Assembly: GCA_964617125.1 (NCBI GenBank)
Contig: CAZTVS010000004.1
Span: forward strand, 12,196-76,195
DNA: 64,000 bases
DNA from: an uncultured Acidobacteriota bacterium
Lineage (GTDB): Bacteria > Acidobacteriota > UBA6911 > CAINFC01
Direction: 5' to 3'
A program made the translations under genes and the position numbers. Numbering within the stretch: position 1 is the stretch's first letter; every line of letters begins with the position of its first letter. Of the stretch, positions 149 to 15,699 are shown piece by piece. Under the pieces are notes generated by a model, which did no database searches, had not been told where the DNA came from, and saw only the letters and a list, made by a program, of their open reading frames with translations.

Positions 149-1648
149 ATGAAGCTGCAACGTTTATTCCTGAGTAGCGTGCAAAAAGAGCTGGCGGAGG
201 AACGGCGCGCCTTGCGGGAGTACATCGAAGGAGATGCCCTGCTTGGCAAGTTCTTCGAGGTGTTTCTCTTCGAGCTGCTGCCGGCCTCGGATCGGCGCGC
301 GGACCAGGTCTATCTGGAACAGGTGGACCGCTGCGACGTCTATCTCGGCTTGTTTGCCGACGAATACGGTTACGAAAACAGCAGGGGAGTGTCGCCCACC
401 GAGCGCGAATTCGATCGTGCTACCGAGCTGGGCAAGCATAGGCTGATCTATGTCAAAGGAGCGGATGACCGTCGCCGCCATCCGAAAATGGCCGCACTGA
501 TCCGCAAGGCGAGCGGGCAACTGATCCGACGGCGCTTCGGATCCACGGCGGAATTAATGGCCGGCGTTTATGCCAGCCTGATTCAGATCCTTGAAGAGAA
601 GGAACTGATCCGGAGTGGACCATTCGATGCCGCTTTTTGCCGTGAGGCCGTCTTTCAGGATCTGGACGAAGACCGCATCCGTGCCTTTGTAGGATTGGCC
701 AGGAGCGCGCGCGGATTTCCCCTGCCGGAGGAATCCAGGCCGCTCGACGTTCTTACCCATTTGAATCTGCTGGATAAAGATCGCCCGACCCACGCAGCCA
801 TCCTTTTGTTCGGAAAAAGGCCCCAACGTTTTTTGTTGTCGTCGGAGGTCAAGTGCGCCCATTTCCATGGAACGGAGGTGGAGAAACCGATTCCGTCCTT
901 CCAGGTGTACAAGGGTACGGTCTTCGAGTTGACGGATCAGGCGATTGACTTCGTCCTGTCCAAGATCAACCGCTGGGTTGGCACCCGGGCAGAGAGTTCT
1001 CAGGCCCCTACCCTCTATGAGATACCCCGTGAAGTGGTCGGCGAGGCCCTGGTCAATGCCGTCGCTCACCGCGACTACACCAGCCCGGCCAGCGTGCAGG
1101 TGATGTTGTTTGCCGACCGGCTGGAGATATGGAATCCGGGCACCCTGCCCCCGGCGCTCACTTTGGAGAAGCTACGCCAGCCCCATGCCTCTTTTCCCGC
1201 CAATCCACTGCTGGCGGAATCGCTCTATCTGGCAAAATATATCGAACGGATGGGTACGGGCACCAGCGACATGATTCGGCGTTGCCGGGAGGCCGGGCTT
1301 CCCGAGCCTGAGTTCCGCCTCGATGCCGGCTGCTTCGTTATCACCCTCCGGCGCCGGGCCATACAAGTCACCCCCGAAGTCACCCCCGAAGTCACCCCCG
1401 AAGTCACCCCCGAAGTCACCCCCGAAGTACTGAAGATGCTCGGCGTCCTCCAAGGGGAGATGGGGCGTCAGGAAATCCAGGCCCGTCTGGGGCTGACGGA
1501 CGAGAAACATTTCCGAGAGCATTACCAGCAACCGGCCATAGCCCAAGGGCTCATCGAGATGACTCTCCCCGACAAGCCGACCAGCCGCCTCCAAAAGTAC
1601 CGCCTGACCGCCAAAGGCCGCACCCTGCTGGTAAAGACAAATCCATAG
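149..1648 (+). CDS. Multidomain ATP-binding / putative DNA-binding protein: DUF4062-like N-terminus, Schlafen/AlbA_2-like domain, HATPase_c_4-like domain, C-terminal winged-HTH
   Basis: Intact 499-aa ORF. The N-terminus (…VFLFELLP…DRCDVYLGLFADEYGY) resembles DUF4062. The middle (AAILLFGKRPQRF…SEVKCAHFHGTE) resembles the AlbA_2 divergent-AAA/Schlafen-like DNA-binding domain. ALVNAVAHRDYTSPASVQVMLFADRLEIWNPG resembles the HATPase_c_4 (RecG C-terminal-like) domain. The C-terminus looks HTH-like. An internal (TPEV)5 linker is present. Confidence 0.7.
   Translation: MKLQRLFLSSVQKELAEERRALREYIEGDALLGKFFEVFLFELLPASDRRADQVYLEQVDRCDVYLGLFADEYGYENSRGVSPTEREFDRATELGKHRLIYVKGADDRRRHPKMAALIRKASGQLIRRRFGSTAELMAGVYASLIQILEEKELIRSGPFDAAFCREAVFQDLDEDRIRAFVGLARSARGFPLPEESRPLDVLTHLNLLDKDRPTHAAILLFGKRPQRFLLSSEVKCAHFHGTEVEKPIPSFQVYKGTVFELTDQAIDFVLSKINRWVGTRAESSQAPTLYEIPREVVGEALVNAVAHRDYTSPASVQVMLFADRLEIWNPGTLPPALTLEKLRQPHASFPANPLLAESLYLAKYIERMGTGTSDMIRRCREAGLPEPEFRLDAGCFVITLRRRAIQVTPEVTPEVTPEVTPEVTPEVLKMLGVLQGEMGRQEIQARLGLTDEKHFREHYQQPAIAQGLIEMTLPDKPTSRLQKYRLTAKGRTLLVKTNP
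1367..1428 (+). repeat. Perfect 12-bp tandem repeat (GTCACCCCCGAA) x5 inside the CDS, encoding the (TPEV)5 linker
   Basis: Five exact head-to-tail copies of gtcacccccgaa at 1367-1426. The repeat is in frame (4 codons per unit). Confidence 0.95.
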
Positions 1649-1693
1649 GTATTCTCGTAGAAAAATAACAATCTGACTTATTTTAAAACTTCA

Positions 1694-4600
1694 ATGGTTA
1701 AGAAAATAAGTGAAAACCAAAAAGCGGGTTATATCGGCGAAGATGAGTTCCGACTATGGGCCAGTAAAATTGGCTGGCATCCGACAAAAACTGCTCCTGA
1801 TCATGGATTAGACTTTTTCTGTCAACTCGAGGGTGAAAAGGTAAGCGAAAAGTCTTATACAATGCCTGGCAAGATTGTGGCTGTCTCTGTTCGGTCTACT
1901 GAAAAAGACAAAGATGTAGTTAGGATCACCCGAGATGATGCCCAACTTTTTTTGACAACAAATACACCCATGGTTTTTGCGGTCGTTCGCAGAGGTTCCG
2001 TTGAAGAGAGTGGAGAAATATCCATTCAGTTCCCAGATGAAAAATTCATTCGAGAACTAGATAATTTCTTACAAAGTAGTGCGGAACACTATTTGCTACG
2101 TTTCTCTGATGCGATTTCGAAATTGGACACGATTCAACAATACGCCGTTAATTTATTCAAGGAGGCTCCAGGGGATAGAATCGCCCGTATAAGGGCTAAT
2201 ATAAGACTCCAGCCTCTAATGCCAGATTCCCACGTAGAAATTTTACACACAGATCAAGGTATACATGGGTTGGTTAGAACAAACCAGATAACAACACCTT
2301 GCCTAATCGAGAAAAGGCCTGATGTTAAGAGTGTATTGAGTGATATCGGCTTCCCATTCAAAGAGATTCTTCCAATAGAGAATTCTGATTTTCAAAATAC
2401 TGAAAGAGATCTGATTATAGGTCAACTTCGAGACGAACTTTCCAAATGGAATGTTCATGAGGCAATAGTCTTATCAGAACAGATAGAGTCTACTGAGTTG
2501 GATGTCGAACGAGATCTGGATCTTACTTTGGCTGAAATCATAATTTTGTTAGCAAGAACACATATATTTTTTGGAGAAGAGAAAGGAACCCAACAGCAGC
2601 AACATATCGAACGTGCCAGGAAATTGATATCAAAAACGGTCCCGCTATTATCGATTTCAAAAGAGCTCCTTGAGGAAATCATAGCACTCAACGCATCTAT
2701 TGAAAACATAGAAAACGGTCCAGATAGTGCAATAGCCATGCTTGAAGGGCGGGTAGATTCTTTTGCCATTCGTTCACGCACAGCCATCCTCATCCAACAA
2801 CAGAAATATACCGAAGCATTATGCGTAGTTGAAGGCCGGGAACCGCATGAGCGCTGGTGTGATGTGGCTGTAACCGCTTATGCTATGAACGATCGTATCG
2901 AAGAGGCTCAAACCTTGGTCAGATGGGCGGCCGGGTTGTCGGATCGGAGTCGCTACTGGCAGTGCCTGGTACGATTGGCTGAGGCTCTGCTGGCGAGGGC
3001 AACCGCCGGACATAAAACGGGTATCCCGATTCAGTTGCATGATCTCACTCCGGGAGAACTTGGAAAGCTAAAGGTCGCAACGGAGACGGTTCAACCGATT
3101 CTTCAACTCGTTCGGGCCGCAGGCAAGCCGAGTTCCGGCCTCGATATGGCCGCCTTGCAAGTCGACTGGCAGGCCAATCACCTTCTGCAGCTACGCAAGG
3201 CTGCCGGTGAATCCCTCCGTCTGATGCTTCCATGGACGCCCGTACCACTGGATGTGGCCCGTGGAGTGCTGAACGGTTATCTGGAGGCTCCCTCCGATCT
3301 TCCGGATCGACTCCGTAGGGATCACCCCGGCGATTTCACTGCCGGAATGCTGGCGGCGCTTGTCGAATCGATTGGTCAGAAACATTTTATCGAAGCATTC
3401 GCCAGAGCTAAAGGATTGCTAACGATCGTTGACAATGACGAAAAGAAGGAGGAACTTTCCAGTCTTTTTTCGCAGATCTGGCAATATCTCGAGGATCCTG
3501 AAGTTACGGAATGCCAGACCCTCGTTAGAACTCTTACGGCGCACAATCCCCAGCTCTATGCCATATTTGAAGGAGCGGTCGCCCTTCGACAGGGCAATTC
3601 CGATCAGGCTATGGATATCCTTGACGCCTATAAGTCAGAGGATGACCCCTATTGGCTGCAGCTTCGAGCCAATGCACTACTGCAGAAACGTCAACCGGCC
3701 GAGGCGGTGGGACTTCTTTTCCAGGCGGCGAAAATGACCTGCGATGCCGGTCTGCTGCGCCAGACGGGAGATTTGGCCATCCAGGCCGAACGGAACGATC
3801 TGGCCACCTGGTGCTACGAAAGGCTGGCGGAACTGGGGCCACAGGATTCCGCAATACACGGCAATCTCGCTTATATCTACATGTCCGTGCTTCACGATCT
3901 GGAGAAGGCCGCCGTCCAATTCCGGACCCTGCATGCGGCCGAACCGTCCAATCCCACCCATACACAGAATCTGGCCATCTGCCTGGCCCAATTGTATCGA
4001 CCGGAGGAAAGCCTGTCGTTCTATAACGAATTATGCCGGTGGGAGAATCCGCCCCTGGCGGCGGTCCTGGGCCGGGCCCGGCTGCATCACAGCCTGGGAC
4101 GGCCAGATAGGGCACTGGAATCGCTGGAACCTTTCCAGGAACGCTTTGGAGGGGAAACTGACTTTCTGACTACCTATTGGATGATCCTGCAAGCGGCCGG
4201 AAAGGAAGAGAAGGGGCAGGCTGTCCTGAGAGAGCTGATCCGATTGCAGGAGGAAGGGAAGATCGATCCGGAAGTCATGCAAAGGCTGCAAACGGACGAG
4301 ATGCAGGAGATGATCCTGCAAACCTCCCGGCAGATCCGGGATCGCGACGAACATCTCCATAGCCAGATGGTGCAGGGACGCATGCCCTGGATCTGGGCCG
4401 AGCTGACATCGGGAAATGCCATATACCTGGGTTGGCGTATTCGAACACAGGAGATGGACTGGATCGGGGATGACCCTGCCAACCGGGCCCGTTTTGGCAT
4501 CTACTCGACCAACGGATTCCATCCTCGCGAATCGGAACACGGCCGGCGGGAACTGTTACCGCTGGAATGCCCTCCGGCAGGAACAAGCATTGTCGCGGAT

Positions 4601-7600
4601 ATCTCCGCCCTGGTAACCCTCCATCGTCTGAATCTTCTAGGTGCCGCAGCGGAGTACTTCGGCGAGATACTGGTTCCTGTCGGCTATCTGCCTGCAGTCC
4701 TGGAAGAGAGCGCCAAGATGATGCTTCCCCAGCTCTCGCAGCGACAAATCGCGGAACAGATCGTCAAACATATTACCGCCGGGCGGATTCTGGTAATAAA
4801 AGAAGGAGACAGATCGTCCGAAACCATACCGATCGTCGACGAATATGGCGAATCTCCGGATCAGAAGTACCGACTACGGGATCTGATCGATCCGATCTAT
4901 CGGGTTGGATTAATAAACGATGAAGAGTATGCCAAGGTTTTAAAGGTCTGCTCCAAGCCATCTTCCGTGGACGGGAAACATCCCGGGCTGGAACAATTCC
5001 AGGACGTGTGCATGGAACTGATGACACTGGAAACCGTGGCACGCCTTGGCATGCTGGATACGGTTGCGCAATTTTACCGGGTGCATCTTACTTCAACGGC
5101 CCGACAGGAAATAGTCCAGCGCCTGGAGGCCTTCGCCCGGCAGGAAGAGACCCGTCAATGGCATATGGACATGTGGAGCCGGCTTCGTAGTAACTCACAT
5201 TTCCGTTTCGTGCCCCACACCGTTCCCGAAACGATGCGCAAAGCAGACTGGGAGACCGGTGATTATCTGCCGTTTCTTGCATGTTTCATCTCCCTGGAGA
5301 CTAAGCTGCCGCTTCTGGCCGATGATCGGGTTTGCCAGGTGTTCACCCTGAACGAGTCAGCAGACACGGTACCGGCGGCTTTCGGTTCCGATGTGGTGGT
5401 GACAGCCTTGATGATCTCCGGTAAGCTGGAGCCGAGAAAAGCGGCAGATGCCCTTTTGCAGCTTATGGCATGGCGTTATCGTTTCCTCATTCCACGGCCG
5501 GAGATGCTGGAAATCCTGGCCGCCCGGCACCGAGGCAATCCGCCTGGGCATCTCCTGCAAGTTGTCGCCGAATACGTTCAGGATTGCATGCGCGATGAAG
5601 GTCTCTTCCGCGGATCGGAAAACACCATGCTGCAGGAATCCATGGCTATACGGCTTCATATGACATGGATCTCGACCATCGCCGAGTTTTTGGTCCTGGT
5701 GTGGACCGATGAGAATTTCAGTGCCGAGTGTGCAATGCGTTTGACCGACTGGAGTTGCCGCGAATTACTGCCCTCCGCTCCTAAAGTGATGAACACATGC
5801 CAGAAGGTGCAGGCCGGCGAGGTGGTGCTTCGTATGCTCCTGTCGCGCACCCTTCTGTTGACTCACAGCCATTATAAGAATCCGCGCATGGCGGAGGCCC
5901 TGTTCGCAGTCAAGAAAGCCATGCATCTGAGCAATGAAACCTACTTGCGAATCGTATTGGAAATCCTGAAAGATGCCGCAGGTTCGGTGCCTTCGGCACC
6001 AGAAGCCGAATCGGAAGAAATACGGAAAGCGTTTCACAACCTGCAACTGCAGATGTGGAATTGCGCCTTTCGTTCTTTTCAGCGCATCGATCCTCGCACT
6101 CTGACGGCACTCCTGGATCTGGACCTCTTTAAAGAGTCTATCGATCCTATCGGCGGCGATATCGATATGGAAATCCTTCGCGATCCGCATCATGAGCAAC
6201 GCATCCCTCTCTCTCCCGGCCCGCTGCTATTGTACCGGAACCAGGAGAAAGAGCCGAAACGAATTATCCTGGATGTTTCGCTGCTTCTTTTCTCATCGAT
6301 ATCGGCAGTACGAAATACTGCCTTCATGTACCTCGACCGGCAGATATCTGACGGATTGTTGCGGATCACACCGAAGACCAGAGATGTGCTGCAAAAGATG
6401 CGAACGCCAATCTCGTCGGATGCATCGCATGAGTGGCGTCCGGCGGCCATCGCTCTGAGCGATGCCATGAATGACGATCTGCTGGTGGCACTTCAGGCCG
6501 TTCGTCAAAGCCTCACTTGCGATACGATCATCCAGGATAGCCTGAATACTTATGTTCCGCGCATCCTCCATCCGGCCGTGTCTTCCTTTGACTCCCTCAG
6601 CTTTGAGGTTGCTAATCCTGAATCGGAGCATTCACAGTTAACGGATATTGTTTCATCCGTGGTCAGCGGAGCGGGCACCCTACAAGAAGCTTGTGACGGG
6701 TATTATGCAAGATTGGGTTACCTGCCTTTGGCGCCTTCTTTTGCCATGGTAGAGGTTGTAAGCAAATGGATTGCCGAACATCCCTCTGTCGAGGTGTGGC
6801 CGGAAATCTGGCAATGGGCACAGCGAGCCTCCGGACCTATCCCTCGATATCATGCCTGCTCGGTTTTTGTCCTTCGTCCGGAATGGATCCCGGAAGGAAA
6901 GCTTGCGGAACTCTGGCGGGAGATACTGGATGTCGTAAATGGATCAGGAGAACGAAGTGACGATGGCTTAGATCAAGAGCCTTGGGCCCTGCGGCGCGAT
7001 CTGTCTCGCCACTTCATACGCCATCTGGAAGCGCATCTGCCGGAGAGCGAAGGAACCAAGATCGCCTGTTTCTCCTGGTGGCTTTCCGAGCAAGTGGCAT
7101 CGTTGTTTCCAGAAGACCCGGAGTCGGTGCGGTTCTATCGGAAAAACTGGATCGTCCCGGCATCGGAACAATCACTGGGCGTTTGGTTGGTCGCTCGCTC
7201 TCCGATCGGTTGTTCATTCTTCAGGTATGTGACGACCACCATCTCCTCTCCCTGGGCAATGGCGTTGTTGGCAATCATGGGCAGAAAGATGGAACCATTG
7301 AAACCGCAGGAACAGGATGAAGGAATAAAATCTCAATTTCATGAAGCACTGATAAGATGCCTTATCGATGCTCTTCCGATTATCGTGGAACCTCCGACAG
7401 ACCCGACCTATGCCCTGGAGTGTGATTTAGGGGAAACCGCTCTCCAGTGGGCTGCATTCCAAGCTGAGTCTCAGCGCACAGCCCTGGAACAGATCATAAC
7501 CACCAGCCGAACGCTGAACTCGGTGGAGCAACTGTGCGCGACTCTGCGCCAGCTGGCGGACAAATCCCTCCCCGACCAGATCGCCATCGCTTTTATTCTC

Positions 7601-8032
7601 AGGATGAAAGCCTATACCAATAAGGCTCTGGAGGGTTCGATGGGAGAGATCCTTTCCGATAACGACTGGCGAAAACAGGTCTTCGGATCGACCGAGGAGA
7701 ATGTGCTTGGAATACTGATGGGAGCCTTGACCATCCTTCAAGTTCGTACTCAGGAAAAATGGAGTCTGCTGCTTCCTCATTTTCTCGCTGAGATATGTGA
7801 GCAGGCGGAAGATGAGGATCGATGCCATCAACTTTTTCTGTTTTTGCTCTACTCGTCCCTGGCATCGGAAACCGTCAGTGCTGTCCAACGTCTGCTCAAG
7901 GGCGATAGGAAGGCCAGTTTTAAAAAGTATTCGGAAGAATTTATAAAGTATATAGAGGCAAAGTGGCCACATTTCCCTCCTTGGGTTCAAGGACGCCTGA
8001 GAGGACTGATGGCATGCTTATTGGTAACGTGA
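1694..8032 (+). CDS. Giant 2112-aa protein with an N-terminal PD-(D/E)XK-like (DUF4365-like) module and a long TPR/alpha-solenoid region; no P-loop seen
   Basis: Single uninterrupted 6.3-kb ORF. The N-terminus (GYIGEDEFRLWASKIGWHPTKTAPDHGLDFFCQLEGEK) fits a D…(E/Q)xK restriction-endonuclease-like core reminiscent of DUF4365. The remainder is rich in TPR-like helical-repeat signatures (A..Y..G…AL). No Walker A motif was found by eye. The first ~1.1 kb is AT-rich and the rest GC-rich. Confidence 0.65.
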   Translation: MVKKISENQKAGYIGEDEFRLWASKIGWHPTKTAPDHGLDFFCQLEGEKVSEKSYTMPGKIVAVSVRSTEKDKDVVRITRDDAQLFLTTNTPMVFAVVRRGSVEESGEISIQFPDEKFIRELDNFLQSSAEHYLLRFSDAISKLDTIQQYAVNLFKEAPGDRIARIRANIRLQPLMPDSHVEILHTDQGIHGLVRTNQITTPCLIEKRPDVKSVLSDIGFPFKEILPIENSDFQNTERDLIIGQLRDELSKWNVHEAIVLSEQIESTELDVERDLDLTLAEIIILLARTHIFFGEEKGTQQQQHIERARKLISKTVPLLSISKELLEEIIALNASIENIENGPDSAIAMLEGRVDSFAIRSRTAILIQQQKYTEALCVVEGREPHERWCDVAVTAYAMNDRIEEAQTLVRWAAGLSDRSRYWQCLVRLAEALLARATAGHKTGIPIQLHDLTPGELGKLKVATETVQPILQLVRAAGKPSSGLDMAALQVDWQANHLLQLRKAAGESLRLMLPWTPVPLDVARGVLNGYLEAPSDLPDRLRRDHPGDFTAGMLAALVESIGQKHFIEAFARAKGLLTIVDNDEKKEELSSLFSQIWQYLEDPEVTECQTLVRTLTAHNPQLYAIFEGAVALRQGNSDQAMDILDAYKSEDDPYWLQLRANALLQKRQPAEAVGLLFQAAKMTCDAGLLRQTGDLAIQAERNDLATWCYERLAELGPQDSAIHGNLAYIYMSVLHDLEKAAVQFRTLHAAEPSNPTHTQNLAICLAQLYRPEESLSFYNELCRWENPPLAAVLGRARLHHSLGRPDRALESLEPFQERFGGETDFLTTYWMILQAAGKEEKGQAVLRELIRLQEEGKIDPEVMQRLQTDEMQEMILQTSRQIRDRDEHLHSQMVQGRMPWIWAELTSGNAIYLGWRIRTQEMDWIGDDPANRARFGIYSTNGFHPRESEHGRRELLPLECPPAGTSIVADISALVTLHRLNLLGAAAEYFGEILVPVGYLPAVLEESAKMMLPQLSQRQIAEQIVKHITAGRILVIKEGDRSSETIPIVDEYGESPDQKYRLRDLIDPIYRVGLINDEEYAKVLKVCSKPSSVDGKHPGLEQFQDVCMELMTLETVARLGMLDTVAQFYRVHLTSTARQEIVQRLEAFARQEETRQWHMDMWSRLRSNSHFRFVPHTVPETMRKADWETGDYLPFLACFISLETKLPLLADDRVCQVFTLNESADTVPAAFGSDVVVTALMISGKLEPRKAADALLQLMAWRYRFLIPRPEMLEILAARHRGNPPGHLLQVVAEYVQDCMRDEGLFRGSENTMLQESMAIRLHMTWISTIAEFLVLVWTDENFSAECAMRLTDWSCRELLPSAPKVMNTCQKVQAGEVVLRMLLSRTLLLTHSHYKNPRMAEALFAVKKAMHLSNETYLRIVLEILKDAAGSVPSAPEAESEEIRKAFHNLQLQMWNCAFRSFQRIDPRTLTALLDLDLFKESIDPIGGDIDMEILRDPHHEQRIPLSPGPLLLYRNQEKEPKRIILDVSLLLFSSISAVRNTAFMYLDRQISDGLLRITPKTRDVLQKMRTPISSDASHEWRPAAIALSDAMNDDLLVALQAVRQSLTCDTIIQDSLNTYVPRILHPAVSSFDSLSFEVANPESEHSQLTDIVSSVVSGAGTLQEACDGYYARLGYLPLAPSFAMVEVVSKWIAEHPSVEVWPEIWQWAQRASGPIPRYHACSVFVLRPEWIPEGKLAELWREILDVVNGSGERSDDGLDQEPWALRRDLSRHFIRHLEAHLPESEGTKIACFSWWLSEQVASLFPEDPESVRFYRKNWIVPASEQSLGVWLVARSPIGCSFFRYVTTTISSPWAMALLAIMGRKMEPLKPQEQDEGIKSQFHEALIRCLIDALPIIVEPPTDPTYALECDLGETALQWAAFQAESQRTALEQIITTSRTLNSVEQLCATLRQLADKSLPDQIAIAFILRMKAYTNKALEGSMGEILSDNDWRKQVFGSTEENVLGILMGALTILQVRTQEKWSLLLPHFLAEICEQAEDEDRCHQLFLFLLYSSLASETVSAVQRLLKGDRKASFKKYSEEFIKYIEAKWPHFPPWVQGRLRGLMACLLVT

Positions 8033-8075
8033 ATAGAATCGGTGTGTTTCTTCATTTCCTCCATAAGCCGGGTGG

Positions 8076-9636
8076 CATGATGGTATCGATGTTTAGGGAA
8101 AAACGATTTCCGATCCTTGCAATAGGTGTAGGGCCGGTCCTGTCCTTATTCTTGTGGGTCGCCGGGTGTGTCTCTCCCGGTTCCGGCCTTTTGGTTGCAG
8201 CGCTGGAGGAGTTCTCTCTGCCTCTGGGGCAGGTGCTGGAACGCGTCCCCTGTCAGGGGGATTCGACCCAGAGCTATGCGCTGTTTCTGCCTTCGACGTA
8301 CCGTCCCGATCGATCCTGGCCGATCCTCTATGCCTTCGATCCGGGAGCCCGCGGAGTGATTCCGGTGCGGCTTTTCGGGAAGACAGCCGAGCGTTTGGGG
8401 TACATCGTCGCCGCCTCCAATAATGCGCGAAACGGGCCCGGTCTTCCGATCAAGAAGGCCATAGAAGCCGTCTGGCACGATACGCATGCACGACTGAACC
8501 TCGATCCGGCGCGTATCTATACGACGGGCATGTCCGGGGGGACATCGCCGGCTTGGATGCTGGCCGAGGGGTATGGGAGTGGAATCATCGCCTGTGCCGG
8601 GGCTATCCTTCCGGAAGAGCTGGTACCGGAGAAGATACGTTTCGCCTGGTTCGGCATCGCCGGCGATGCCGATTTCAACTACGACCTTACCCGGTCGGTG
8701 GTGGAGAAATTATTATCCCGTGATATCCGGGCGCGTTTTGCTACCTTTGAGGGCGGGCATGACTGGCCGCCGGAGGATCTGGCTTCCTATGCCTTGGAGT
8801 GGCTGGAACTCATGGCCATGCAGGCCGGAAGGATTTCTCGGAACACACACTTTATCGATGACCAATTCCAGCGGAGATCCTCGAGAGTAAACGACCTGAA
8901 AGCCGCCGGAAAGATGCAGGAGGCGGCGGAAGAGTGCGAAGCGATGTCCCGGGATTTCTCCGGGTTAAAACCGATCGACGAATTCTCTGTGGAAGCCAAA
9001 CATCTGTATCAACTGCCGGAAGCCTCCCGGATGCGTAAGCAATCCAGGACCCGCAGCCAAAAAGAAAAACTGTTGTTGACCCGCCTGGAAAATTTGCGCC
9101 TTCAACTGGAGCGGCTCTCGGAAACACAATCCGAATCTTACTCCAGCAGGATTCTTTCCGACCTGCCGTCGAAAGAACCTTACGGCGGGGAAGAGTCTTA
9201 TGACAGCGGCAGCAATCGACAGGAAATTCTTTTCCAGATCCAGCAGCGTGTCTCCGGACTGGAGCATGACCGGAAGGCGAAAAATGGCGACACTCGCCTG
9301 GTGGCGGTTCGAGTGCTGGATGCCTTTTATATCGGAACCTACTATCTCGGTTGGGAACGGCGTGAAAGGAGCCAATTCGAAGCGGCCTTGGCCGATTTTG
9401 CTATTTGTGCTTTGATGCGTCCCAAGAGTCCTGTCCCTGTGTATGAAACAGCTCGAACTCATGCCAAGCGAAACGAACATAAAAAAGCATTGGCTGAGTT
9501 GCGCCGGGCGTTGAAGATGGGTTTCGGCGATCGCAGCCGGCTGGTCGAGGACCCTGAATGGGAATCCCTGCGCAGTATGCCCGACTTTCAGGGTATTCTG
9601 GGTGAGCTGGAAGCGAAATCCACTATGAAACCTTAG
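8076..9636 (+). CDS. Alpha/beta-hydrolase (esterase/peptidase-like) lipoprotein with a C-terminal helical/TPR-like extension
   Basis: The ORF runs from 7963, but the likely start is the ATG at 8076 (MMVSMF…), giving a signal peptide with lipobox LWVAGC. A GxSxG nucleophile elbow (GMSGG) lies in an esterase-like context (LPSTYRPDRSWPILYAFDPG…). The gene begins 44 nt after the giant ORF ends. Confidence 0.55.
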
Positions 9637-9928
9637 CACGCTCAACCCTGCACCGGAGGCGAATGGAGTCGGGTGTTCCACTCGGATAGTACTGGCTTCG
9701 ATGAGTTGCGTATTCCAGCGGGCAGGATGGTAAATCGTCGGTCAAGTTGGAAGCCATCTGGTGATGACCAAACCGAATTGTCGTGTGAATCTTTCCATAC
9801 CACAGCACAAAGAACTATCTATCGGTACCCTTCGGGCTTTGATTCGTAATGCAGGGATGAGTGTGGAAGAGTTTCTGCATTCGCTTTAATCGGTGGGTAA
9901 TCCTGTAGCCTCGTCGGGTCAGTTCTTG

Positions 9929-12046
9929 TTAACGGAACCGGATCTGGTGTTCCACCGGATTGCCATCCCGGAATTCGAAGGGGCAGCGTACCACCAGGGT
10001 GTGGTCGTTGGCGTCCTTGGCCAGCCACAGGCCGGCCGGATCTTTCAACGACATTTCTTTGGGAACGGTGAGGTATACATTGCCCTGCAATCCCGCCGGG
10101 CGTTGCGCCCGGATGGTTAAGGTCTTTTCCGACTCATTCCATAGGCACGACTCGATCTCCGCCTGGCCCTGGCGGATATGCATATCGGTGGAAAGGAGCC
10201 AGGGGTGCCTCTGTCGCCCGGCAATCCGCCATAACTTTACCGACTGCGGCGGTACCGAGCCCTGGAAATGTCCCGTATGTACTCCCATGTACTTGCCGGC
10301 CCAATAATCCCACACCGTGCAGTCGGCGTTTTCCGGCAGTCCCAGCCGGAGAAAATCGATGACCGGTTGCAGTGACTCTTTTCCATAGTTGAAGACCGCT
10401 ACCAGGTCCCACTCGCCCCATTCCCGCGCCACATGCAGGTGGAATGTCTTCGGATACTCCGGGTCGGGTGCCTCGAACAGGTCCAGCGGCCGGCCGGCTT
10501 CCGGCAGCCGGGGAAAGACTTGACGGATCATCTCCAGCCGCGAGGGATCGATGCGGTCGATGTCGTCTCCCAGCATCAACGGGCCGCCGTTCATGCCGAA
10601 GATGGTGGAGGCAATCTCGGCATCGGCCAGAGGTAATGGCTTATCGACGGTCAGCACGTTGCCCGAGTCGGCCAGAAACAGCCGACGATGCATGAACCAG
10701 TGTGTCGCCCAGGCATCGGTTGCCCGTCGGTGGGATGTCCAGTAGGAGGCGTTGTTGATGACAAAGGTGCCGGGGTAGAAACCCTTGCCCTCTCCGTCCA
10801 GCGGCCGTCCCTCCCCGTAGTCGGTGCCTACGCGTGCGGCATTCACCAGTCCTACCCCTTGCATTGTCGGGCCGGTGCTGGAAAGCAAATAAGTATCTTC
10901 GCCGGCCGCAGCCCGGATGGCTTGAAGTCCCTGGCGAAAGGTCTCCGGGCCGGGAACGAGAGACCGGTCGAAGAAGCCGTCCGGCCGGTAGGTACCGGGA
11001 GTCGATCCGCCGATGGCATTCAGAAAATCGATCATGTAATAGCGCACTCCCCAGCGGCGATAGGTCTCGAATACCCGCCGGATGTGCTCCTGGGTTTTGG
11101 GATGTGTCGGATCGAGTATATAGGACGTTCCCCATTGGGAACTCGGCACGGTGATCGGTTGGCCGTCGCGAAGGAGTACCGCATCCTTCAGCCGCTCATA
11201 GTCTTCCAGTTCGGAATTCAGCCAGTAGGCGCCGGCCCAGAGTCCCAGCTGGAAATCCAGCCGCCCCAACTCGGTGATGAGTGCTTCCGGCCCGCTGGGG
11301 AACAGCTTCCGGTTCCACCGCAGCCAGTTTCCCGGACGGCGATCTTCCAGGTTGCCGAGGCTGACCCAAATATAATCGATGTCGAATCCAGCCAGTTTTT
11401 TCCGCACAGCCTGGGCATTGCGCCGTACCACATCCTCGTATCGCTCGATGTTGAAGCTGTCGACCCATGACCATCCTACCCAACCGGCCGGGATTTTGGG
11501 CCAAAGCGGCGGACGATAATGGGCGGCTACAGCTTCCGCCCAATGCTCCAGGGCGACATAGGGATCGGTCCCTCTCTCGATTCGCAGCGTTTCGGTGGCA
11601 ATCTCGGCCCCAGGTGCCAAGCGGTATCCCTCGAAATCGCAATAAGAGACTACGACTATACTATTTCGGCTTTCATCCCAGCGTATCTCGTGTTCGGTAG
11701 CCACACGGTCGAAGGTCACGAATCCCGTCTGCCATGCCGCTTTTCCGTCCGATAGCTGCACCAGGGTCTTGCTCCACAGCGGTTTCTCGCCACGAACTCT
11801 CTTGACGACGGAAGGTCCCTGCCATCCGGACATGACTAGGGCTACGGCATCGGCGGAAAGTTGTACGGTCTCCTCATGCAATGGATAACGGCCCAGAAGT
11901 TCCGCCTGAGCGCCTGTATTCCGGGCGATCGCCTGCACCAGTTTTATTCCTCGCTCATCCCTGGTCGTAACCTTCCAGCGCACCTCTGCCGGCATCTCCT
12001 GTATCAGACCGAGGAGTGCCCATATCAGCCAATACCATTTCTTCAT
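9929..12046 (-). CDS. Secreted glycoside hydrolase (alpha-galactosidase / clan GH-D-like, tentative)
   Basis: 705-aa ORF with an N-terminal signal peptide (MKKWYWLIWALLGLIQ). Motifs such as GVRYYMIDF and DYIWVS recall the melibiase/GH36-27 (beta/alpha)8 fold. The family assignment is by eye only. Confidence 0.45.
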   Translation of the reverse strand: MKKWYWLIWALLGLIQEMPAEVRWKVTTRDERGIKLVQAIARNTGAQAELLGRYPLHEETVQLSADAVALVMSGWQGPSVVKRVRGEKPLWSKTLVQLSDGKAAWQTGFVTFDRVATEHEIRWDESRNSIVVVSYCDFEGYRLAPGAEIATETLRIERGTDPYVALEHWAEAVAAHYRPPLWPKIPAGWVGWSWVDSFNIERYEDVVRRNAQAVRKKLAGFDIDYIWVSLGNLEDRRPGNWLRWNRKLFPSGPEALITELGRLDFQLGLWAGAYWLNSELEDYERLKDAVLLRDGQPITVPSSQWGTSYILDPTHPKTQEHIRRVFETYRRWGVRYYMIDFLNAIGGSTPGTYRPDGFFDRSLVPGPETFRQGLQAIRAAAGEDTYLLSSTGPTMQGVGLVNAARVGTDYGEGRPLDGEGKGFYPGTFVINNASYWTSHRRATDAWATHWFMHRRLFLADSGNVLTVDKPLPLADAEIASTIFGMNGGPLMLGDDIDRIDPSRLEMIRQVFPRLPEAGRPLDLFEAPDPEYPKTFHLHVAREWGEWDLVAVFNYGKESLQPVIDFLRLGLPENADCTVWDYWAGKYMGVHTGHFQGSVPPQSVKLWRIAGRQRHPWLLSTDMHIRQGQAEIESCLWNESEKTLTIRAQRPAGLQGNVYLTVPKEMSLKDPAGLWLAKDANDHTLVVRCPFEFRDGNPVEHQIRFR

Positions 12047-12175
12047 TTTTATCTCCCAACCCTGTTCCTGTCATTAAAGTACAGGGTTTATCATACAATG
12101 AGGAAGCCATATAATCTGATGGATATTTAGCAATGACAGGATTCACTATTGGTGCTTAGTAAAAAATTCAATTCT

Positions 12176-13207
12176 ATGAGAACCATCAAACCAGCTCTTT
12201 TTGTCCTTTGGGCGATAACCTTCCTGCTTGCCTTCCCTGGCTGCCGGCTGAAAGATCGCACAAAAATCGAATCCAATCATACGAAGGAACACCGGTATAA
12301 AAGCAAAATCGATCTTTCCGATATAAAAGTCGGTTATTGTACGCCTTCCCTGAATGCACCCTACTACATGGTACTGACGGAAGAGATTAAAAAAAATGTT
12401 GAATCGTATGGCATGCAATTCCTTTCCGCTGACGGGCAGGATGATATCGCCAGGCAGATCACGGCCGTGGAAGACCTCGTAGCCTCCGGGGTAAAGATTT
12501 TAATCGTAAATCCACTCGATCCGCTGGCCATCGTCACCTCGGTAAATTCCGCGGTCAGGAGCGGCATTCCTGTATTTACCATCGACAGCGGTATTGATCC
12601 CTCCGCGGAAATCACTTCCGGCGTGAAAGCCGACAATACCGGCAATGGATATTTAATCGGGGAATGGATGGCCGGAAAAATGGGAAAAGCAAACGTGAAC
12701 GCTGCCATCATAAGCGGAAGACAGGGCAATCCCGTGGGGAAAATGAAAAGGCTCGGTTTTATTCAGGGTTTTATGGAAACGCAGTTAAGGACCCTGGGAA
12801 GCTCAAACCTGAAAATCGTTTCCCAGGGATGGGGTAATTGGACAAACAATGGTGGCCTGAAGGCTATGGAAGATATCCTTGTGGCTCAACCGGAAGTCAA
12901 CCTCCTGTTTGCCGAAAACGATGCCATGGCAATGGGAGCCCTGAAGGCAATCAAGGAAGCCGGCCTGGAAGGCAAGGTACTGGTCGCCGGAGTCGACGGG
13001 CAAAAAGAGGCCGATCAGCTCATCCTGTCCGGTAAGCTGGGAGCTACTGCCTTGAACAGTCCTGGCGTTATGGCAGAAATGATGATGGAAACGATCGTGA
13101 GATATTTAAACGGAGAAAGAAATATCGATAAGCATATATTGACCCCGGCCGTTTTAATCACCAAAGAGAACGTGGAACAGTATTACGATCCCAAGGCATT
13201 CTTTTAA
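12176..13207 (+). CDS. Sugar ABC transporter substrate-binding lipoprotein (RbsB/periplasmic-binding-protein type I-like)
   Basis: The ORF begins with TTG at 12149, but the likely ATG start is at 12176 (MRTIKPALFVLWAITFLLAFPGC, lipobox). A periplasmic sugar-binding fold is suggested by VKILIVNPLDP…IPVFTIDSG. It is followed by an ABC ATPase and a permease. Confidence 0.7.
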   Translation: MRTIKPALFVLWAITFLLAFPGCRLKDRTKIESNHTKEHRYKSKIDLSDIKVGYCTPSLNAPYYMVLTEEIKKNVESYGMQFLSADGQDDIARQITAVEDLVASGVKILIVNPLDPLAIVTSVNSAVRSGIPVFTIDSGIDPSAEITSGVKADNTGNGYLIGEWMAGKMGKANVNAAIISGRQGNPVGKMKRLGFIQGFMETQLRTLGSSNLKIVSQGWGNWTNNGGLKAMEDILVAQPEVNLLFAENDAMAMGALKAIKEAGLEGKVLVAGVDGQKEADQLILSGKLGATALNSPGVMAEMMMETIVRYLNGERNIDKHILTPAVLITKENVEQYYDPKAFF

Positions 13208-13223
13208 AAAAAATAAAACCCGT

Positions 13224-14714
13224 ATGAATACCATCAACAGGGTTGAATTGTTGCATATCGCCAAATCGTTCGGCGGAGTCAGGGCTTTGAAAGATGTGAG
13301 TCTGCAAGTTCAACCGGGTGAGGTGCACGCTTTGCTGGGTGAGAACGGTGCCGGGAAATCTACCCTGATGAAGGTTCTTTCGGGAGCCCATCAAAAGGAC
13401 AGCGGCAAAATCCTTATCGACGGTCACGAGGTACACATCAAGAACACAGCCGACAGCAAAAAACTGGGGATCGGAATCATTTATCAGGAGTTTTCCCTTG
13501 TACCCGATTTGTCGGTTTCCGAAAATATCTACCTGAACCGGCTGAACAGGCATTTCCGGGTACCCTGGAAGAAGATCGCCAGGGATTCTTCCGAACTGAT
13601 TCAAAGAATGGGATTCAACATCGATCCTCTTCGTAAAGTGAGTTCCTTGACCGTAGCCGAACAACAGATTGTTGAAATAGCGAAAGCCCTGTCGGAAAAA
13701 GTAAAAGTCCTGATCCTGGATGAGCCATCGGCTGTGTTGGGAACCAGGGAGATCGAAAGACTATTCGCGATCATCAGAGAATTAAAAGAGCAGGATGTGT
13801 CCGTCATTTATATTTCGCACCATCTCAGTGAAATCTTTTCTATTGCCGACAGGGTTACGGTCATTAAAGATGGTGTGACGGCAGGAAGCCGCTATATCAA
13901 TGAGACCGATAAGGATTCCCTGATCGCCCTGATGCTGGGCCGGAACCTTGGAACTATGTTTGCGGAAAGAACGGTCCAACCGGGCGAAGAGATCATCTCA
14001 GTCCAGAACATCCGTTATAAAGACCGGGTGAAAGATGTTTCGTTCTCCATACGCTCGGGTGAGGTGCTCGGCCTCGCCGGCCTGGTTGGGAGCGGAAGAA
14101 CGGAAGTGGCAGAAACTGTTTTCGCGGCAGTGAAAAAAGATAAAGGAACCATAAGGCTGAACCACAGAGAGGTCAACGCCGGTTCACCCAGCGGGTCGGT
14201 AAAACTGGGAATCGGGATGGTGAATGAAGACAGAAAACAGAAAGGAGTTCTGCTCGATCTTCTGGTTTCACAAAATATCACACTTACCAGTTTGGGATCC
14301 GTCAGTAACCGGTTGGGATTTATTAACAGGAAAAAGGAGAAGAAGATTGCAGAGGAACTGATTGCAAGGTTGAGGATCAAAGTTTCCGGCCGGGAAATGA
14401 TCGTGGGTAATTTAAGCGGCGGCAACCAGCAAAAAGTCGCCATAGCCAAATGGGTGAACCGGAGCTGCCAATTTTTAATTGTTGATGAACCAACCCGGGG
14501 AGTGGATGTCGGCGCCAGGGTGGAAATTTATGCTTTGATCAATGAACTGGCGGAAAGCGGGGTGGCGATCCTGGTCATTTCCTCGGAGACCAGTGAACTG
14601 ATGGGATTGTGTGATCGGATCCTGGTGATGAAAAACGGATCCGTACAGGGGGCGTTATCGAAAAATGAATTTTCGGAAGAACAAATATTACGACTGGCTA
14701 TTGGAGTTCGATAG
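13224..14714 (+). CDS. Sugar ABC transporter ATP-binding protein with duplicated NBDs (RbsA/MglA-like)
   Basis: Walker A GENGAGKSTLMKVLSG and signature LSGGNQQKVAIAKW. Two nucleotide-binding domains in 496 aa. Confidence 0.85.
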   Translation: MNTINRVELLHIAKSFGGVRALKDVSLQVQPGEVHALLGENGAGKSTLMKVLSGAHQKDSGKILIDGHEVHIKNTADSKKLGIGIIYQEFSLVPDLSVSENIYLNRLNRHFRVPWKKIARDSSELIQRMGFNIDPLRKVSSLTVAEQQIVEIAKALSEKVKVLILDEPSAVLGTREIERLFAIIRELKEQDVSVIYISHHLSEIFSIADRVTVIKDGVTAGSRYINETDKDSLIALMLGRNLGTMFAERTVQPGEEIISVQNIRYKDRVKDVSFSIRSGEVLGLAGLVGSGRTEVAETVFAAVKKDKGTIRLNHREVNAGSPSGSVKLGIGMVNEDRKQKGVLLDLLVSQNITLTSLGSVSNRLGFINRKKEKKIAEELIARLRIKVSGREMIVGNLSGGNQQKVAIAKWVNRSCQFLIVDEPTRGVDVGARVEIYALINELAESGVAILVISSETSELMGLCDRILVMKNGSVQGALSKNEFSEEQILRLAIGVR

Positions 14715-14719
14715 ACAGA

Positions 14720-15679: not shown

Positions 15680-15699
15680 TTGACCATACAGAGAAAGAT

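What the first reader, a model, noticed from the sequence alone, without database searches (positions are those of the whole stretch)
149..9636. Candidate undescribed conflict/defence module: DUF4062–Schlafen/AlbA_2–HATPase–HTH protein plus a 2112-aa PD-(D/E)XK–TPR giant
Two adjacent same-strand genes 45 nt apart combine domain types that recur in anti-phage and conflict systems. The first has a DUF4062 N-terminus fused to a Schlafen-like AlbA_2 domain, a HATPase_c_4 domain and a C-terminal HTH. The second is a 2112-aa protein whose first ~150 aa look like a PD-(D/E)XK (DUF4365-like) nuclease module (…DHGLDFFCQLEGEK…). Its remaining ~1900 aa are TPR/alpha-solenoid with no P-loop visible. This architecture is unlike STAND/Avs proteins and is not one I recognise as a named system. 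An esterase lipoprotein follows immediately downstream. None of the flanking genes are housekeeping.
Basis: partly seen in the sequence, partly recalled or inferred. Interest (0 to 1): 0.78.

Follow-up and report, generated by a model that had tools for sequence, protein, structure and literature searches.

The report
Two separate known-type anti-phage genes
The two adjacent genes are most likely independent anti-phage genes from families already described, sitting side by side in a defence island, but the giant one carries an extra 680-residue helical module that turns out to be a conserved, so far unreported partner of its family.

Summary
Both ORFs exist as described (149-1648, 499 aa; 1694-8032, 2112 aa), but they do not form an undescribed two-gene system.

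The giant protein is a fused member of the TPR-GreA/B-C-PIN ("TGP") conflict family. That family was catalogued by Kaur et al. 2021, and one member, Bab/Agp, has been shown to block phage T5. Its parts are:
- residues 1-240: a DUF4365-like restriction-endonuclease effector;
- residues 241-1435: the TGP core, with conserved PIN acidic residues D969, E1050, D1210 and D1233;
- residues 1436-2112: an all-helical solenoid.

In about 25 related loci the solenoid is a separate ~682-aa gene directly downstream of the core. The profile search finds it in 538 protein clusters. The published catalogue lists these proteins as standalone genes.

Gene A carries a DUF4062 domain (a TIR-like NADase, as in Swarozyc and Evangelion), then HATPase_c_4 and a winged HTH. 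No Schlafen/AlbA_2 domain was detected. It has more than 6,900 homologues. All three homologues I looked up sit inside type I restriction-modification operons. It lies near a TGP relative in only 2 of about 25 independent loci.

The esterase lipoprotein downstream is unrelated.

Verdict: a real defence locus built from known kinds. The one new element is the conserved third module and its full fusion here.

The parts
149..1648 (+). Gene A: a 499-aa protein with DUF4062 (TIR-like NADase), HATPase_c_4 and a winged HTH. It is an independent defence-type gene.
   Evidence: ORF. Pfam. More than 6,930 homologues at 60-91% identity across many phyla. Homologues sit inside type I R-M operons.
161..595 (+). 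DUF4062 / TIR-like domain of gene A (aa 5 to about 149). It includes S82-P-T-E85-R-E87-F, which aligns with the catalytic-Glu region of KpSwz.
   Evidence: Pfam PF13271, E 6.5e-20. PDB 10wc KpSwz, E 0.003; SPTEREF aligns with SFTEKAF. DUF4062 is a TIR-like NADase with catalytic E97 (10.64898/2026.05.01.722283).
1091..1348 (+). HATPase_c_4 domain of gene A (aa 315-400). Together with the preceding middle region (aa ~207-314) it matches the 'PNTD1-PNTD2' part of pAgo-associated SIR2 proteins.
   Evidence: Pfam E 7e-22. PADLOC Aga_SIR2-PNTD1-PNTD2, aa 207-407, E 2e-15. PDB 3lmm, aa 263-419.
1365..1428 (+). Perfect 12-nt x 5.3 tandem repeat encoding the (TPEV)5 linker of gene A.
   Evidence: translation.
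1424..1609 (+). C-terminal winged HTH of gene A (Fic-like_C).
   Evidence: Pfam PF21247, E 5.8e-23. PDB 4rgl, E 1.4e-8.
1694..8032 (+). Gene B: a 2112-aa single-chain fusion of three modules, namely effector, TGP core and solenoid C-module.
   Evidence: ORF. Modular homology. Homologues.
1694..2413 (+). N-terminal effector module (aa 1-240). It has a DUF4365-like PD-(D/E)XK fold in aa 1 to about 100. E16, D36 and D40 are invariant, but S65-V-R67 stands where DUF4365 has Q-V-K.
   Evidence: Alignment A3. DUF4365 hit in 6/14 members, best E 3.2e-5. PDB 9qbq, E 0.042. In relatives this module is replaced by PNP_UDP_1, Mrr-like, alpha/beta-hydrolase or Metallophos modules.
2414..4333 (+). Helical/TPR region of the TGP core (aa 241-880). 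Pfam TPR hits fall in aa 595-880.
4346..4573 (+). Small, highly conserved domain (aa 885-960, GRMPWxWAE...STNGFH). It lies in the position where the published architecture places GreA/B-C. Its identity was not established here.
   Evidence: Invariant residues. No GreA signal. 7 of 18 members weakly hit PF24407 HTH_upst_double_PIN.
4574..5428 (+). PIN nuclease domain, possibly tandem, with a large insert (aa 961-1245). The acidic residues D969, E1050, D1210 and D1233 are conserved even in 30%-identical relatives.
   Evidence: PF20698 hit in 12/14 homologues, best E 5.5e-7. Window segment: E 2.1e-4, 22 bits. Conserved columns.
5429..5998 (+). Helical tail of the core (aa 1246-1435). In two-gene relatives the core gene ends here.
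5999..8029 (+). C-module (aa 1436-2112): an all-alpha HEAT/ARM-like solenoid. In most relatives it is a separate ~682-aa downstream gene.
8077..9636 (+). Gene C: an esterase-like lipoprotein with a TPR end domain. It is not part of the system.
   Evidence: Found only in the 99%-identical contig L001 and in no other locus.

Best explanation
The region holds two independent single-gene defence elements next to each other, followed by an unrelated lipoprotein.

**Gene B.** It is a fully fused version of a three-part TGP (TPR-GreA/B-C-PIN) anti-phage system.
- Shown here: an N-terminal DUF4365-like nuclease module sits in the variable 'effector' slot.
- Shown here: the TPR region, a small domain and a PIN domain form the core, and the PIN acidic residues are conserved.
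- Shown here: a C-terminal ~680-aa helical solenoid is a separate downstream gene in most relatives, usually overlapping the end of the core gene. In the four two-gene loci read base by base the overlap is 32 nt.
- Inferred from Kaur et al. 2021 and the Bab/Agp experiments: the TPR and solenoid surfaces sense a phage cue. The core engages RNA polymerase and cuts transcripts with PIN. On activation the N-terminal nuclease degrades nucleic acid and aborts the infection.
- Inferred by Rosetta-stone logic: effector, core and C-module are encoded as three, two or one gene in different genomes. They therefore probably act as one physical complex, with the C-module as a sensing or regulatory scaffold, not an enzyme.

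**Gene A.** It is a DUF4062 TIR-like NADase fused to a HATPase_c_4 plus winged-HTH sensor region.
- Shown here: the domains, retention of both glutamates (E85 and E87, TEREF) in the stretch that aligns with the KpSwz catalytic-Glu region, and the habitual location inside type I R-M operons.
- Inferred from Swarozyc and Evangelion: it acts alone, depleting NAD+ when its C-terminal region is triggered.

**Why they are adjacent.** Both genes tend to land beside type I restriction-modification loci in defence islands.
For: **Gene B is a TGP family member**
- 12 of 14 homologues hit PF20698. The window segment hits it at E 2.1e-4.
- D969, E1050, D1210 and D1233 are conserved down to 30% identity.
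- The catalogue rows are.
- The 1613-aa ORF of L012 lies next to GX634_10455, which is identical to P0035. That ORF therefore corresponds to catalogue entry NLD90744.1 (GX634_10460, 1613 aa).

**The effector slot is variable**
- REase-like, PNP_UDP_1, Mrr-like, alpha/beta-hydrolase and Metallophos modules all occur there.

**The C-module is a conserved partner**
- It directly follows the core in every locus with downstream sequence, about 25 independent loci.
- This also holds for relatives at 25-33% identity, L042 and L043.
- The profile search finds 538 clusters, about 10 of them fused.
- The 32-nt overlap recurs in all four two-gene loci read at the junction.
- The structure is a confident solenoid with no enzyme-like match.

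**Defence context**
- Neighbours include type I, IIG and II R-M, DrmD/SNF2, PglX, AbiEii, SoFic, AAA_15, SMODS and transposases.

**Experimental precedent**
- Bab/Agp blocks phage T5, and its GreA/B-C and PIN mutants lose defence.

**Gene A**
- Domains. Alignment to KpSwz. The 2026 preprints are.
- More than 6,930 homologues.
- Three of three contexts lie inside type I R-M operons.
- The L008/L009 homologue is flanked by hsdM-like and hsdS-like sequence.
- The window's gene A is closer to the homologue in the Thermoanaerobaculia R-M operon (69% identity) than to the homologue next to the TGP gene in L009 (59%). The two adjacencies therefore look independent and not inherited.
Against: - No experiment on these proteins exists.
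- The GreA/B-C domain, a defining feature of the family, could not be recognised here by sequence. The structure model of that part is unreliable (pLDDT 30-75).
- The window protein's own PF20698 score (22 bits) is below Pfam's cut-off of 27.8. Its homologues only just reach it.
- The nuclease module has S-x-R where the catalytic (E/Q)-x-K is expected, so it may not cleave.
- Gene A and gene B are 45 nt apart with no predicted terminator between them, so co-transcription is possible.
- A gene A homologue recurs near a TGP gene in a second lineage, and a gene A-like fragment lies 8 kb from a third. Some functional link is therefore not excluded.
- The upstream flank of the window is unknown.
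Confidence: 0.78

Rival explanations
1. Gene A and gene B form one obligate two-gene defence system. Gene A would act as the sensor or NADase and gene B as the nuclease, or the reverse.
For: - The genes are on the same strand, 45 nt apart, with no terminator-like site between them.
- A 59%-identical gene A homologue lies just upstream of a TGP relative in the Victivallales MAGs L008/L009.
- Gene A matches the PNTD1-PNTD2 part, and the gene B N-terminus the REase part, of related pAgo-associated PADLOC models.
Against: - No gene A homologue was found in about 23 of about 25 independent TGP+C-module loci.
- Three of three gene A homologue loci have no TGP gene and are embedded in type I R-M operons.
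- The family sizes differ by one to two orders of magnitude.
- In L009 an HsdS-like segment lies between the two genes.
- The two gene A copies that sit next to TGP genes are not each other's closest relatives.
- Both families are reported to work as single genes or with other partners.
Confidence: 0.08
2. Gene B's N-terminal DUF4365-like module is catalytically dead. It would serve as a nucleic-acid-binding or sensing domain, leaving the PIN domain as the only nuclease.
For: - S65-V66-R67 is invariant where the DUF4365 structure 9qbq has Q-V-K.
- The window protein gives no Pfam DUF4365 hit.
Against: - E16, D36 and D40 are invariant.
- The module occupies exactly the slot filled by bona fide enzymes (PNP_UDP_1, Metallophos, alpha/beta-hydrolase) in relatives.
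- Arginine could substitute for the lysine.
Confidence: 0.3
3. Gene B is not an immune gene. It would be a housekeeping RNA-processing or scaffold protein of PVC-group bacteria.
For: - It contains long TPR/solenoid regions.
- The downstream neighbours in the window are metabolic genes.
- PADLOC gives no significant hit.
Against: - The gene is rare and patchy: 8 loci in 185,579 species genomes, spread over several phyla.
- The effector slot is swapped between close relatives.
- Neighbours are dominated by R-M, Abi, SNF2 and transposase genes.
- A family member has been shown to block phage.
Confidence: 0.03

Closest known systems
TPR-GreA/B-C-PIN ('TGP') conflict systems (Kaur, Iyer, Burroughs & Aravind 2021, eLife, PMC8195603; Pfam PF20698)
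   Same: [quoted passage not shown] - A protein of the same clade, NLD90744.1, is in the catalogue.
- The genomic setting is a defence island.
   Different: - Gene B carries an extra ~677-aa solenoid. In relatives this solenoid is a conserved, overlapping downstream gene.
- The paper describes the systems as mostly standalone with few conserved neighbours, and lists NLD90744.1 without a neighbour.
- The GreA/B-C domain could not be verified here.
Bab/Agp of E. coli ECOR25 (bioRxiv 10.1101/2024.11.07.622273)
   Same: Agp is a TGP protein shown to be required for defence against phage T5. Defence is lost on mutation of GreA/B-C residues and of a PIN catalytic residue.
   Different: - Agp is 1094 aa and signals through an N-terminal amyloid motif to a separate pore-forming Bell-domain protein.
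- Gene B instead has a fused nuclease-like effector and no detected amyloid motif or Bab partner.
- Gene B adds the C-module.
Swarozyc (KpSwz) and Evangelion DUF4062 defence proteins (bioRxiv 10.64898/2026.05.01.722283 and 10.64898/2026.06.25.731849)
   Same: - Gene A has an N-terminal DUF4062 TIR-like domain with both glutamates (TEREF) in the stretch aligned to the KpSwz catalytic-Glu region, followed by an auxiliary region.
- It has a single-gene layout, lies in a defence island and shows wide horizontal spread.
   Different: - The auxiliary region is a HATPase_c_4 plus winged-HTH module of the COG2865 type. It is not homologous to the KpSwz auxiliary domain; the alignment covers only aa 4-149.
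- Gene A's habitual home is inside type I R-M operons.
- Neither paper's text mentions this architecture.
COG2865-type AlbA_2(Schlafen-like)+HATPase_c_4+HTH proteins of type I R-M operons
   Same: - The HATPase_c_4 domain sits at the same position along the protein.
- Both have a C-terminal HTH and the same operon niche. In L040 both types occur in one R-M operon.
   Different: The N-terminal AlbA_2 domain is replaced by DUF4062.
DUF4365 / DREN-type PD-(D/E)XK nucleases (for example 9qbq; DREN-APAZ of SPARDA, 9jsb)
   Same: - The N-terminal ~100 aa of gene B align with them: G-E in helix 1, D-x-G-x-D, then a strand ending in ST.
- The PADLOC Aga_REase model is the only hit for gene B.
   Different: - S-V-R replaces the Q-V-K motif.
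- The similarity is marginal for the window protein itself.

Membership tests
TGP (TPR-GreA/B-C-PIN) conflict system | TPR repeats upstream of the PIN domain | tested here: met
   Pfam/NCBIfam TPR hits at aa 595-880. Ten to eleven of 14 homologues hit TPR models.
TGP (TPR-GreA/B-C-PIN) conflict system | Divergent PIN domain of the PF20698 type with conserved acidic residues | tested here: met
   - 12/14 homologues hit PF20698 (best E 5.5e-7). Three reach the 27.8-bit cut-off.
- The window segment scores E 2.1e-4 and 22 bits, below the cut-off.
- D969, E1050 and D1210 are invariant and D1233 is at least 90% conserved, including in 30%-identical relatives.
- The fold was not confirmed, because the model is poor.
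TGP (TPR-GreA/B-C-PIN) conflict system | GreA/B C-terminal-like domain between the TPR region and PIN | tested here: inconclusive
   - A conserved ~75-aa domain sits in the right place (aa 885-960).
- The profile gives no GreA hit in the PDB or Pfam.
- hhalign against the E. coli GreA C-domain gives probability 0.1%.
- Instead there are weak hits to PF24407 HTH_upst_double_PIN in 7/18 members.
- AF2 confidence is low here.
TGP (TPR-GreA/B-C-PIN) conflict system | The N-terminal effector domain varies between close relatives | tested here: met
   REase-like, PNP_UDP_1, Mrr-like, alpha/beta-hydrolase and Metallophos modules occur, fused or as a separate upstream gene.
TGP (TPR-GreA/B-C-PIN) conflict system | A close relative is listed in the published catalogue | tested here: met
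   - NLD90744.1 (GX634_10460, 1613 aa, Lentisphaerae) is listed.
- Its neighbour GX634_10455 is identical to L012:5920-7968.
- The L012 core is 55% identical to gene B.
TGP (TPR-GreA/B-C-PIN) conflict system | Protects against phage | not testable with these tools
   Shown only for Agp/Bab.
DUF4365 / PD-(D/E)XK nuclease | Sequence homology to DUF4365 | tested here: met
   - 6/14 family members hit PF14280, best E 3.2e-5.
- The profile's top PDB hit is 9qbq, E 0.042.
- PADLOC Aga_REase, E 0.029.
- The window protein alone gives no Pfam hit.
DUF4365 / PD-(D/E)XK nuclease | Catalytic E ... D ... (E/Q)-x-K signature | tested here: not met
   E16, D36 and D40 are invariant, but the third motif is an invariant S65-V66-R67.
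DUF4062 TIR-like NADase defence proteins (Swarozyc/Evangelion superfamily) | DUF4062 domain with the catalytic glutamate | tested here: met
   - PF13271, E 6.5e-20.
- S-P-T-E85-R-E87-F aligns with KpSwz S-F-T-E-K-A-F.
- I could not fix which of the two columns corresponds to KpSwz E97, but gene A has Glu at both.
DUF4062 TIR-like NADase defence proteins (Swarozyc/Evangelion superfamily) | Auxiliary region homologous to that of Swarozyc | tested here: not met
   The alignment to KpSwz stops at aa 149. The rest of gene A is HATPase_c_4 plus a Fic-like_C winged HTH. Homology to the Eva01 auxiliary region was not tested.
DUF4062 TIR-like NADase defence proteins (Swarozyc/Evangelion superfamily) | NAD+ hydrolysis and abortive infection | not testable with these tools
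   Known only for KpSwz, Eva01 and TEP1.
Schlafen / AlbA_2 (PF04326) proteins | AlbA_2 domain present in gene A | tested here: not met
   - No PF04326 hit at E<=1.
- None in the 120 listed homologues.
- A true AlbA_2+HATPase_c_4 protein aligns only over aa 292-394.
STAND / Avs NTPases | P-loop NTPase domain | tested here: not met
   No [AG]x4GK[ST] motif in either protein. No NTPase family hit.

The most novel reading that the evidence does not exclude
A large clade of TGP systems is really tripartite: effector, TGP core, and a ~680-aa solenoid protein not reported in the published catalogue. The solenoid would be the third obligatory subunit. It is usually encoded by a gene that overlaps the end of the core gene (by 32 nt, out of frame, in the four loci read at the junction) and is occasionally fused, as in this window. 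It would be the actual phage sensor or the autoinhibitory cap of the PIN/effector machine. This would revise the 'standalone gene' model of the family. A less likely reading is that gene A's NADase is functionally wired to this machine.
Probability: 0.45. Interest if true: 0.55.

Novelty: new variant of a known kind. Interest (0 to 1): 0.42.

Why it matters
TGP proteins are a widespread class of bacterial immune proteins. Only one member has been studied experimentally, and how they sense phage is unclear.

Part of the family always travels with a dedicated ~680-aa solenoid partner. Nature has repeatedly fused or split effector, core and partner. This points to a three-subunit complex. It also offers a natural single-chain version, this 2112-aa protein, that would suit expression and cryo-EM.

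Gene A adds a very common but untested architecture to the new DUF4062 NADase defence superfamily: DUF4062 joined to HATPase_c_4 and a winged HTH, embedded in type I R-M operons.

Neither point changes a paradigm. Both are incremental extensions of recent work.

Tried and rejected
- **Upstream flank of the window.** Exact-protein look-ups of gene B and of the 705-aa neighbour found nothing on record. The collection does hold them, from a 95,964-bp NCBI contig.
- **Structure of residues 893-2092.** The aim was to verify GreA/B-C and PIN and to see how the C-module docks. The core part came out at pLDDT 30-75. The Foldseek search returned only karyopherin-like solenoids with TM<=0.15.
- **PIN profile against the PDB (A7).** It was swamped by TPR matches, because two full-length distant cores were included.
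- **AFDB Foldseek.** The library was not available.
- **tblastn of the C-module and of the PIN region against plasmids.** No match.
- **Literature searches.** The HATPase_c_4 search found nothing relevant. The Kaur 2020 paper was the wrong source for the system.
- **Rejected: gene C as a third component.** It occurs only in the near-identical contig L001.
- **Rejected: the L002 upstream gene as a gene A homologue**.

Full report
**1. What is in the sequence**

Two same-strand ORFs are present exactly as reported. Gene A is at 149..1648 (499 aa). Gene B is at 1694..8032 (2112 aa), 45 nt downstream.

A third ORF follows (7963/8077..9636). It has a lipoprotein signal ending in VAGC, a GMSGG serine-hydrolase motif, weak PHB-depolymerase hits and a TPR end domain.

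The locus lies at the very start of the window, so the upstream context is missing. I could not retrieve it.

Downstream genes are ordinary carbohydrate-metabolism genes: an alpha-galactosidase-like protein, a sugar ABC transporter, an alcohol dehydrogenase and a mannitol dehydrogenase. This contradicts the statement that no flank is housekeeping.

**2. Gene B: domain anatomy**

Pfam sees only TPR repeats (aa 595-880) and a faint PF20698 'PIN-TPR-GreABC' match in the full protein. The homologues made the picture clear.

- A word-indexed search found only 14 relatives. Twelve of them hit PF20698.
- Local BLAST showed that gene B is made of three blocks.
  - aa 1-240 is an N-terminal module that differs between relatives.
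  - aa 241-1435 is a core of about 1200 aa.
  - aa 1436-2112 is a block that forms a separate gene in other genomes.
- Within the core, D969, E1050 and D1210 are invariant and D1233 nearly so. They form the D-E-D-D pattern expected of a PIN nuclease. This holds even in relatives that are only 30-33% identical.
- Neither protein has a Walker A motif.

**3. Gene B belongs to a described family**

PF20698 comes from Kaur, Iyer, Burroughs and Aravind 2021 (PMC8195603). They describe a conflict system with a constant region of TPR repeats, a GreA/B-C domain and a novel PIN domain. A variable N-terminal effector precedes it (REase, HNH, PNPase, TIR, SIR2, peptidases and others). They report that it occurs mostly as a standalone gene.

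- Their source table lists 'REase+TPR+GreAB-C+PIN' about 450 times, at 1113-1438 aa. This is the architecture of gene B residues 1-1435.
- Locus L012 carries a 1613-aa ORF whose core is 55% identical to gene B. The gene next to it is sequence-identical to GX634_10455.
- Gene B's own clade is therefore already in the catalogue.

A later preprint names the architecture TGP (10.1101/2024.11.07.622273). It shows that the E. coli ECOR25 TGP protein Agp, with the Bell-domain protein Bab, blocks phage T5. Defence is lost when GreA/B-C or PIN residues are mutated.

I could not confirm the GreA/B-C domain myself. A strongly conserved ~75-aa domain sits in the right slot (aa 885-960), but it gives no GreA signal. 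It weakly matches PF24407, 'HTH upstream of double PIN'. PF20698 also matches a second place around aa 1110-1160, so the PIN region may be a tandem. The structure model of this part was too poor to decide.

**4. The N-terminal module**

- 6 of 14 family members hit PF14280, best E 3.2e-5.
- The family profile's best PDB match is the DUF4365 protein 9qbq.
- PADLOC's only hit is the REase part of a pAgo-associated model.
- E16, D36 and D40 are invariant. Where 9qbq has Q-V-K, this family has an invariant S65-V66-R67. Catalytic competence is therefore uncertain.
- In relatives the same slot holds PNP_UDP_1, an Mrr-like domain, an alpha/beta-hydrolase or a calcineurin-like phosphoesterase. These are either fused or encoded by a separate upstream gene.

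**5. The C-terminal 677 aa: the new element**

- Scans of genomes (8 loci) and metagenomes (24 loci) gave about 25 independent loci.
- In every locus with downstream sequence, the block homologous to aa 1436-2112 directly follows the core. It is nearly always a separate 682-aa gene.
- Its ATG lies inside the end of the core gene. In the four two-gene loci read base by base (L003, L011, L012, L014) the overlap is the same 32 nt, out of frame.
- Among these loci the two are fused only in the window (and its twin L001), in L002 and in L015.
- A word-indexed search found 58 standalone homologues with no Pfam domain.
- An exhaustive profile search found 538 clusters at E<=1e-3. About ten of them are fused proteins of 1788-2360 aa.
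- Two distant members were looked up, and both keep the arrangement.
  - L042: HsdR, then Metallophos, then a 1113-aa core, then a 676-aa C-module.
  - L043: a type II R-M pair, then PNP_UDP_1, then a 1122-aa core, then a 679-aa C-module, then a Tn3 transposase.
- The published table lists NLD90744.1 without any neighbour, and the text speaks of few conserved neighbours. This partner therefore appears to be unreported.
- Effector, core and C-module are found as three, two or one gene. I infer that they work as one complex, and that the C-module is a non-enzymatic sensing or regulatory scaffold. This is inference, not demonstration.

**6. Gene A**

- It has DUF4062, HATPase_c_4 and a Fic-like C-terminal winged HTH.
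- AlbA_2/Schlafen is not detected in it or in any of its 120 best homologues.
- A genuine AlbA_2+HATPase_c_4 protein aligns with it in register only over HATPase_c_4. DUF4062 therefore stands where AlbA_2 usually does.
- Two 2026 preprints show that DUF4062 is a TIR-like NADase that acts in single-gene abortive-infection systems, Swarozyc and Evangelion. Each needs a C-terminal auxiliary region.
- Gene A's S-P-T-E-R-E-F aligns with the catalytic-glutamate region of KpSwz (PDB 10wc).
- The family is very large: more than 6,930 hits, at 60-77% identity across many phyla.
- In all three contexts I looked up, the gene sits inside a type I R-M operon, with the order hsdM-hsdS-[gene]-hsdR or a variant of it.

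**7. Are the two genes a pair?**

- A gene A homologue lies near a TGP+C-module locus only in the window/L001 and in the Victivallales MAGs L008/L009.
- In L008/L009 it is preceded by hsdM-like sequence and followed by an HsdS-like segment before the TGP gene.
- The window's gene A is closer to the copy in a Thermoanaerobaculia R-M operon (69%) than to the L009 copy (59%). The two adjacencies are therefore not inherited synteny.
- Other TGP loci also abut type I R-M genes (L003, L042).
- The neighbours of 24 non-redundant loci are rich in R-M, SNF2/DrmD, PglX, AbiEii, SoFic, AAA_15 and transposase genes.
- The simplest reading is co-location in defence islands around type I R-M loci.
- Co-transcription in this window remains possible, because no terminator was predicted between the genes.

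**8. Verdict**

The interpretation as an undescribed two-gene system is not supported.

The region holds two known kinds of single-gene defence elements. The one new element is the conserved solenoid partner of a TGP clade and its complete fusion here.

I rate it as a new variant of a known kind, of moderate interest.

Noticed in passing
window 1365-1428: A perfect 12-nt x 5.3 tandem repeat encodes a (TPEV)5 linker between HATPase_c_4 and the winged HTH of gene A. Homologues vary from 489 to 591 aa, and the L008/L009 copy has a much longer linker. The linker may expand and contract by slippage.
   Followed up: partly
L003 13605-13636, L011 5104-5135, L012 5920-5951, L014 12987-13012: In two-gene relatives the C-module gene starts at an ATG inside the last ~10 codons of the core gene (core ...ILNDTA..*, partner MTQ...). 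The overlap is out of frame, 32 nt in three of the four loci read and 26 nt in L014. This suggests translational coupling. A frameshift-made fusion product is conceivable.
   Followed up: partly
window ~9764-9889 (+): A 41-aa ORF with a weak HicA_toxin match was called on the 99%-identical contig L001 (8369-8494), just downstream of the lipoprotein gene.
   Followed up: no
L040 5646-15655: One type I R-M operon of a gammaproteobacterial MAG carries both a DUF4062-HATPase_c_4-wHTH gene and a SLFN_AlbA_2-HATPase_c_4 gene, between hsdM, hsdS and hsdR. The two look like interchangeable passengers of R-M operons.
   Followed up: partly
window 5999-8029 (gene B aa 1436-2112): The C-module has many invariant tryptophans. 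It also has conserved C232, H285, C287, H338, H342 and E344 (module numbering; motifs PRYHACSVFVL and RHFxYHLEA). These might form a metal or ligand site in an otherwise plain solenoid.
   Followed up: no
L036 20787-21020; L032 12890-13039: A partial second C-module-like fragment lies 5 kb downstream of an intact system in L036. A fragment 56-80% identical to gene A aa 213-250 lies about 8 kb downstream of another TGP locus in L032.
   Followed up: no
window 2001-4000 and 12001-16000: G+C content dips to 0.47-0.49, against about 0.55 elsewhere. The first dip lies inside gene B and is consistent with horizontal acquisition.
   Followed up: no
gene A aa 207-407 and gene B aa 1-98: Both proteins hit sibling PADLOC models of pAgo-associated proteins. 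Gene A matches the PNTD1-PNTD2 part of Aga_SIR2-PNTD1-PNTD2. Gene B matches the REase part of Aga_REase-PNTD1-PNTD2. The meaning of this coincidence is unclear.
   Followed up: no
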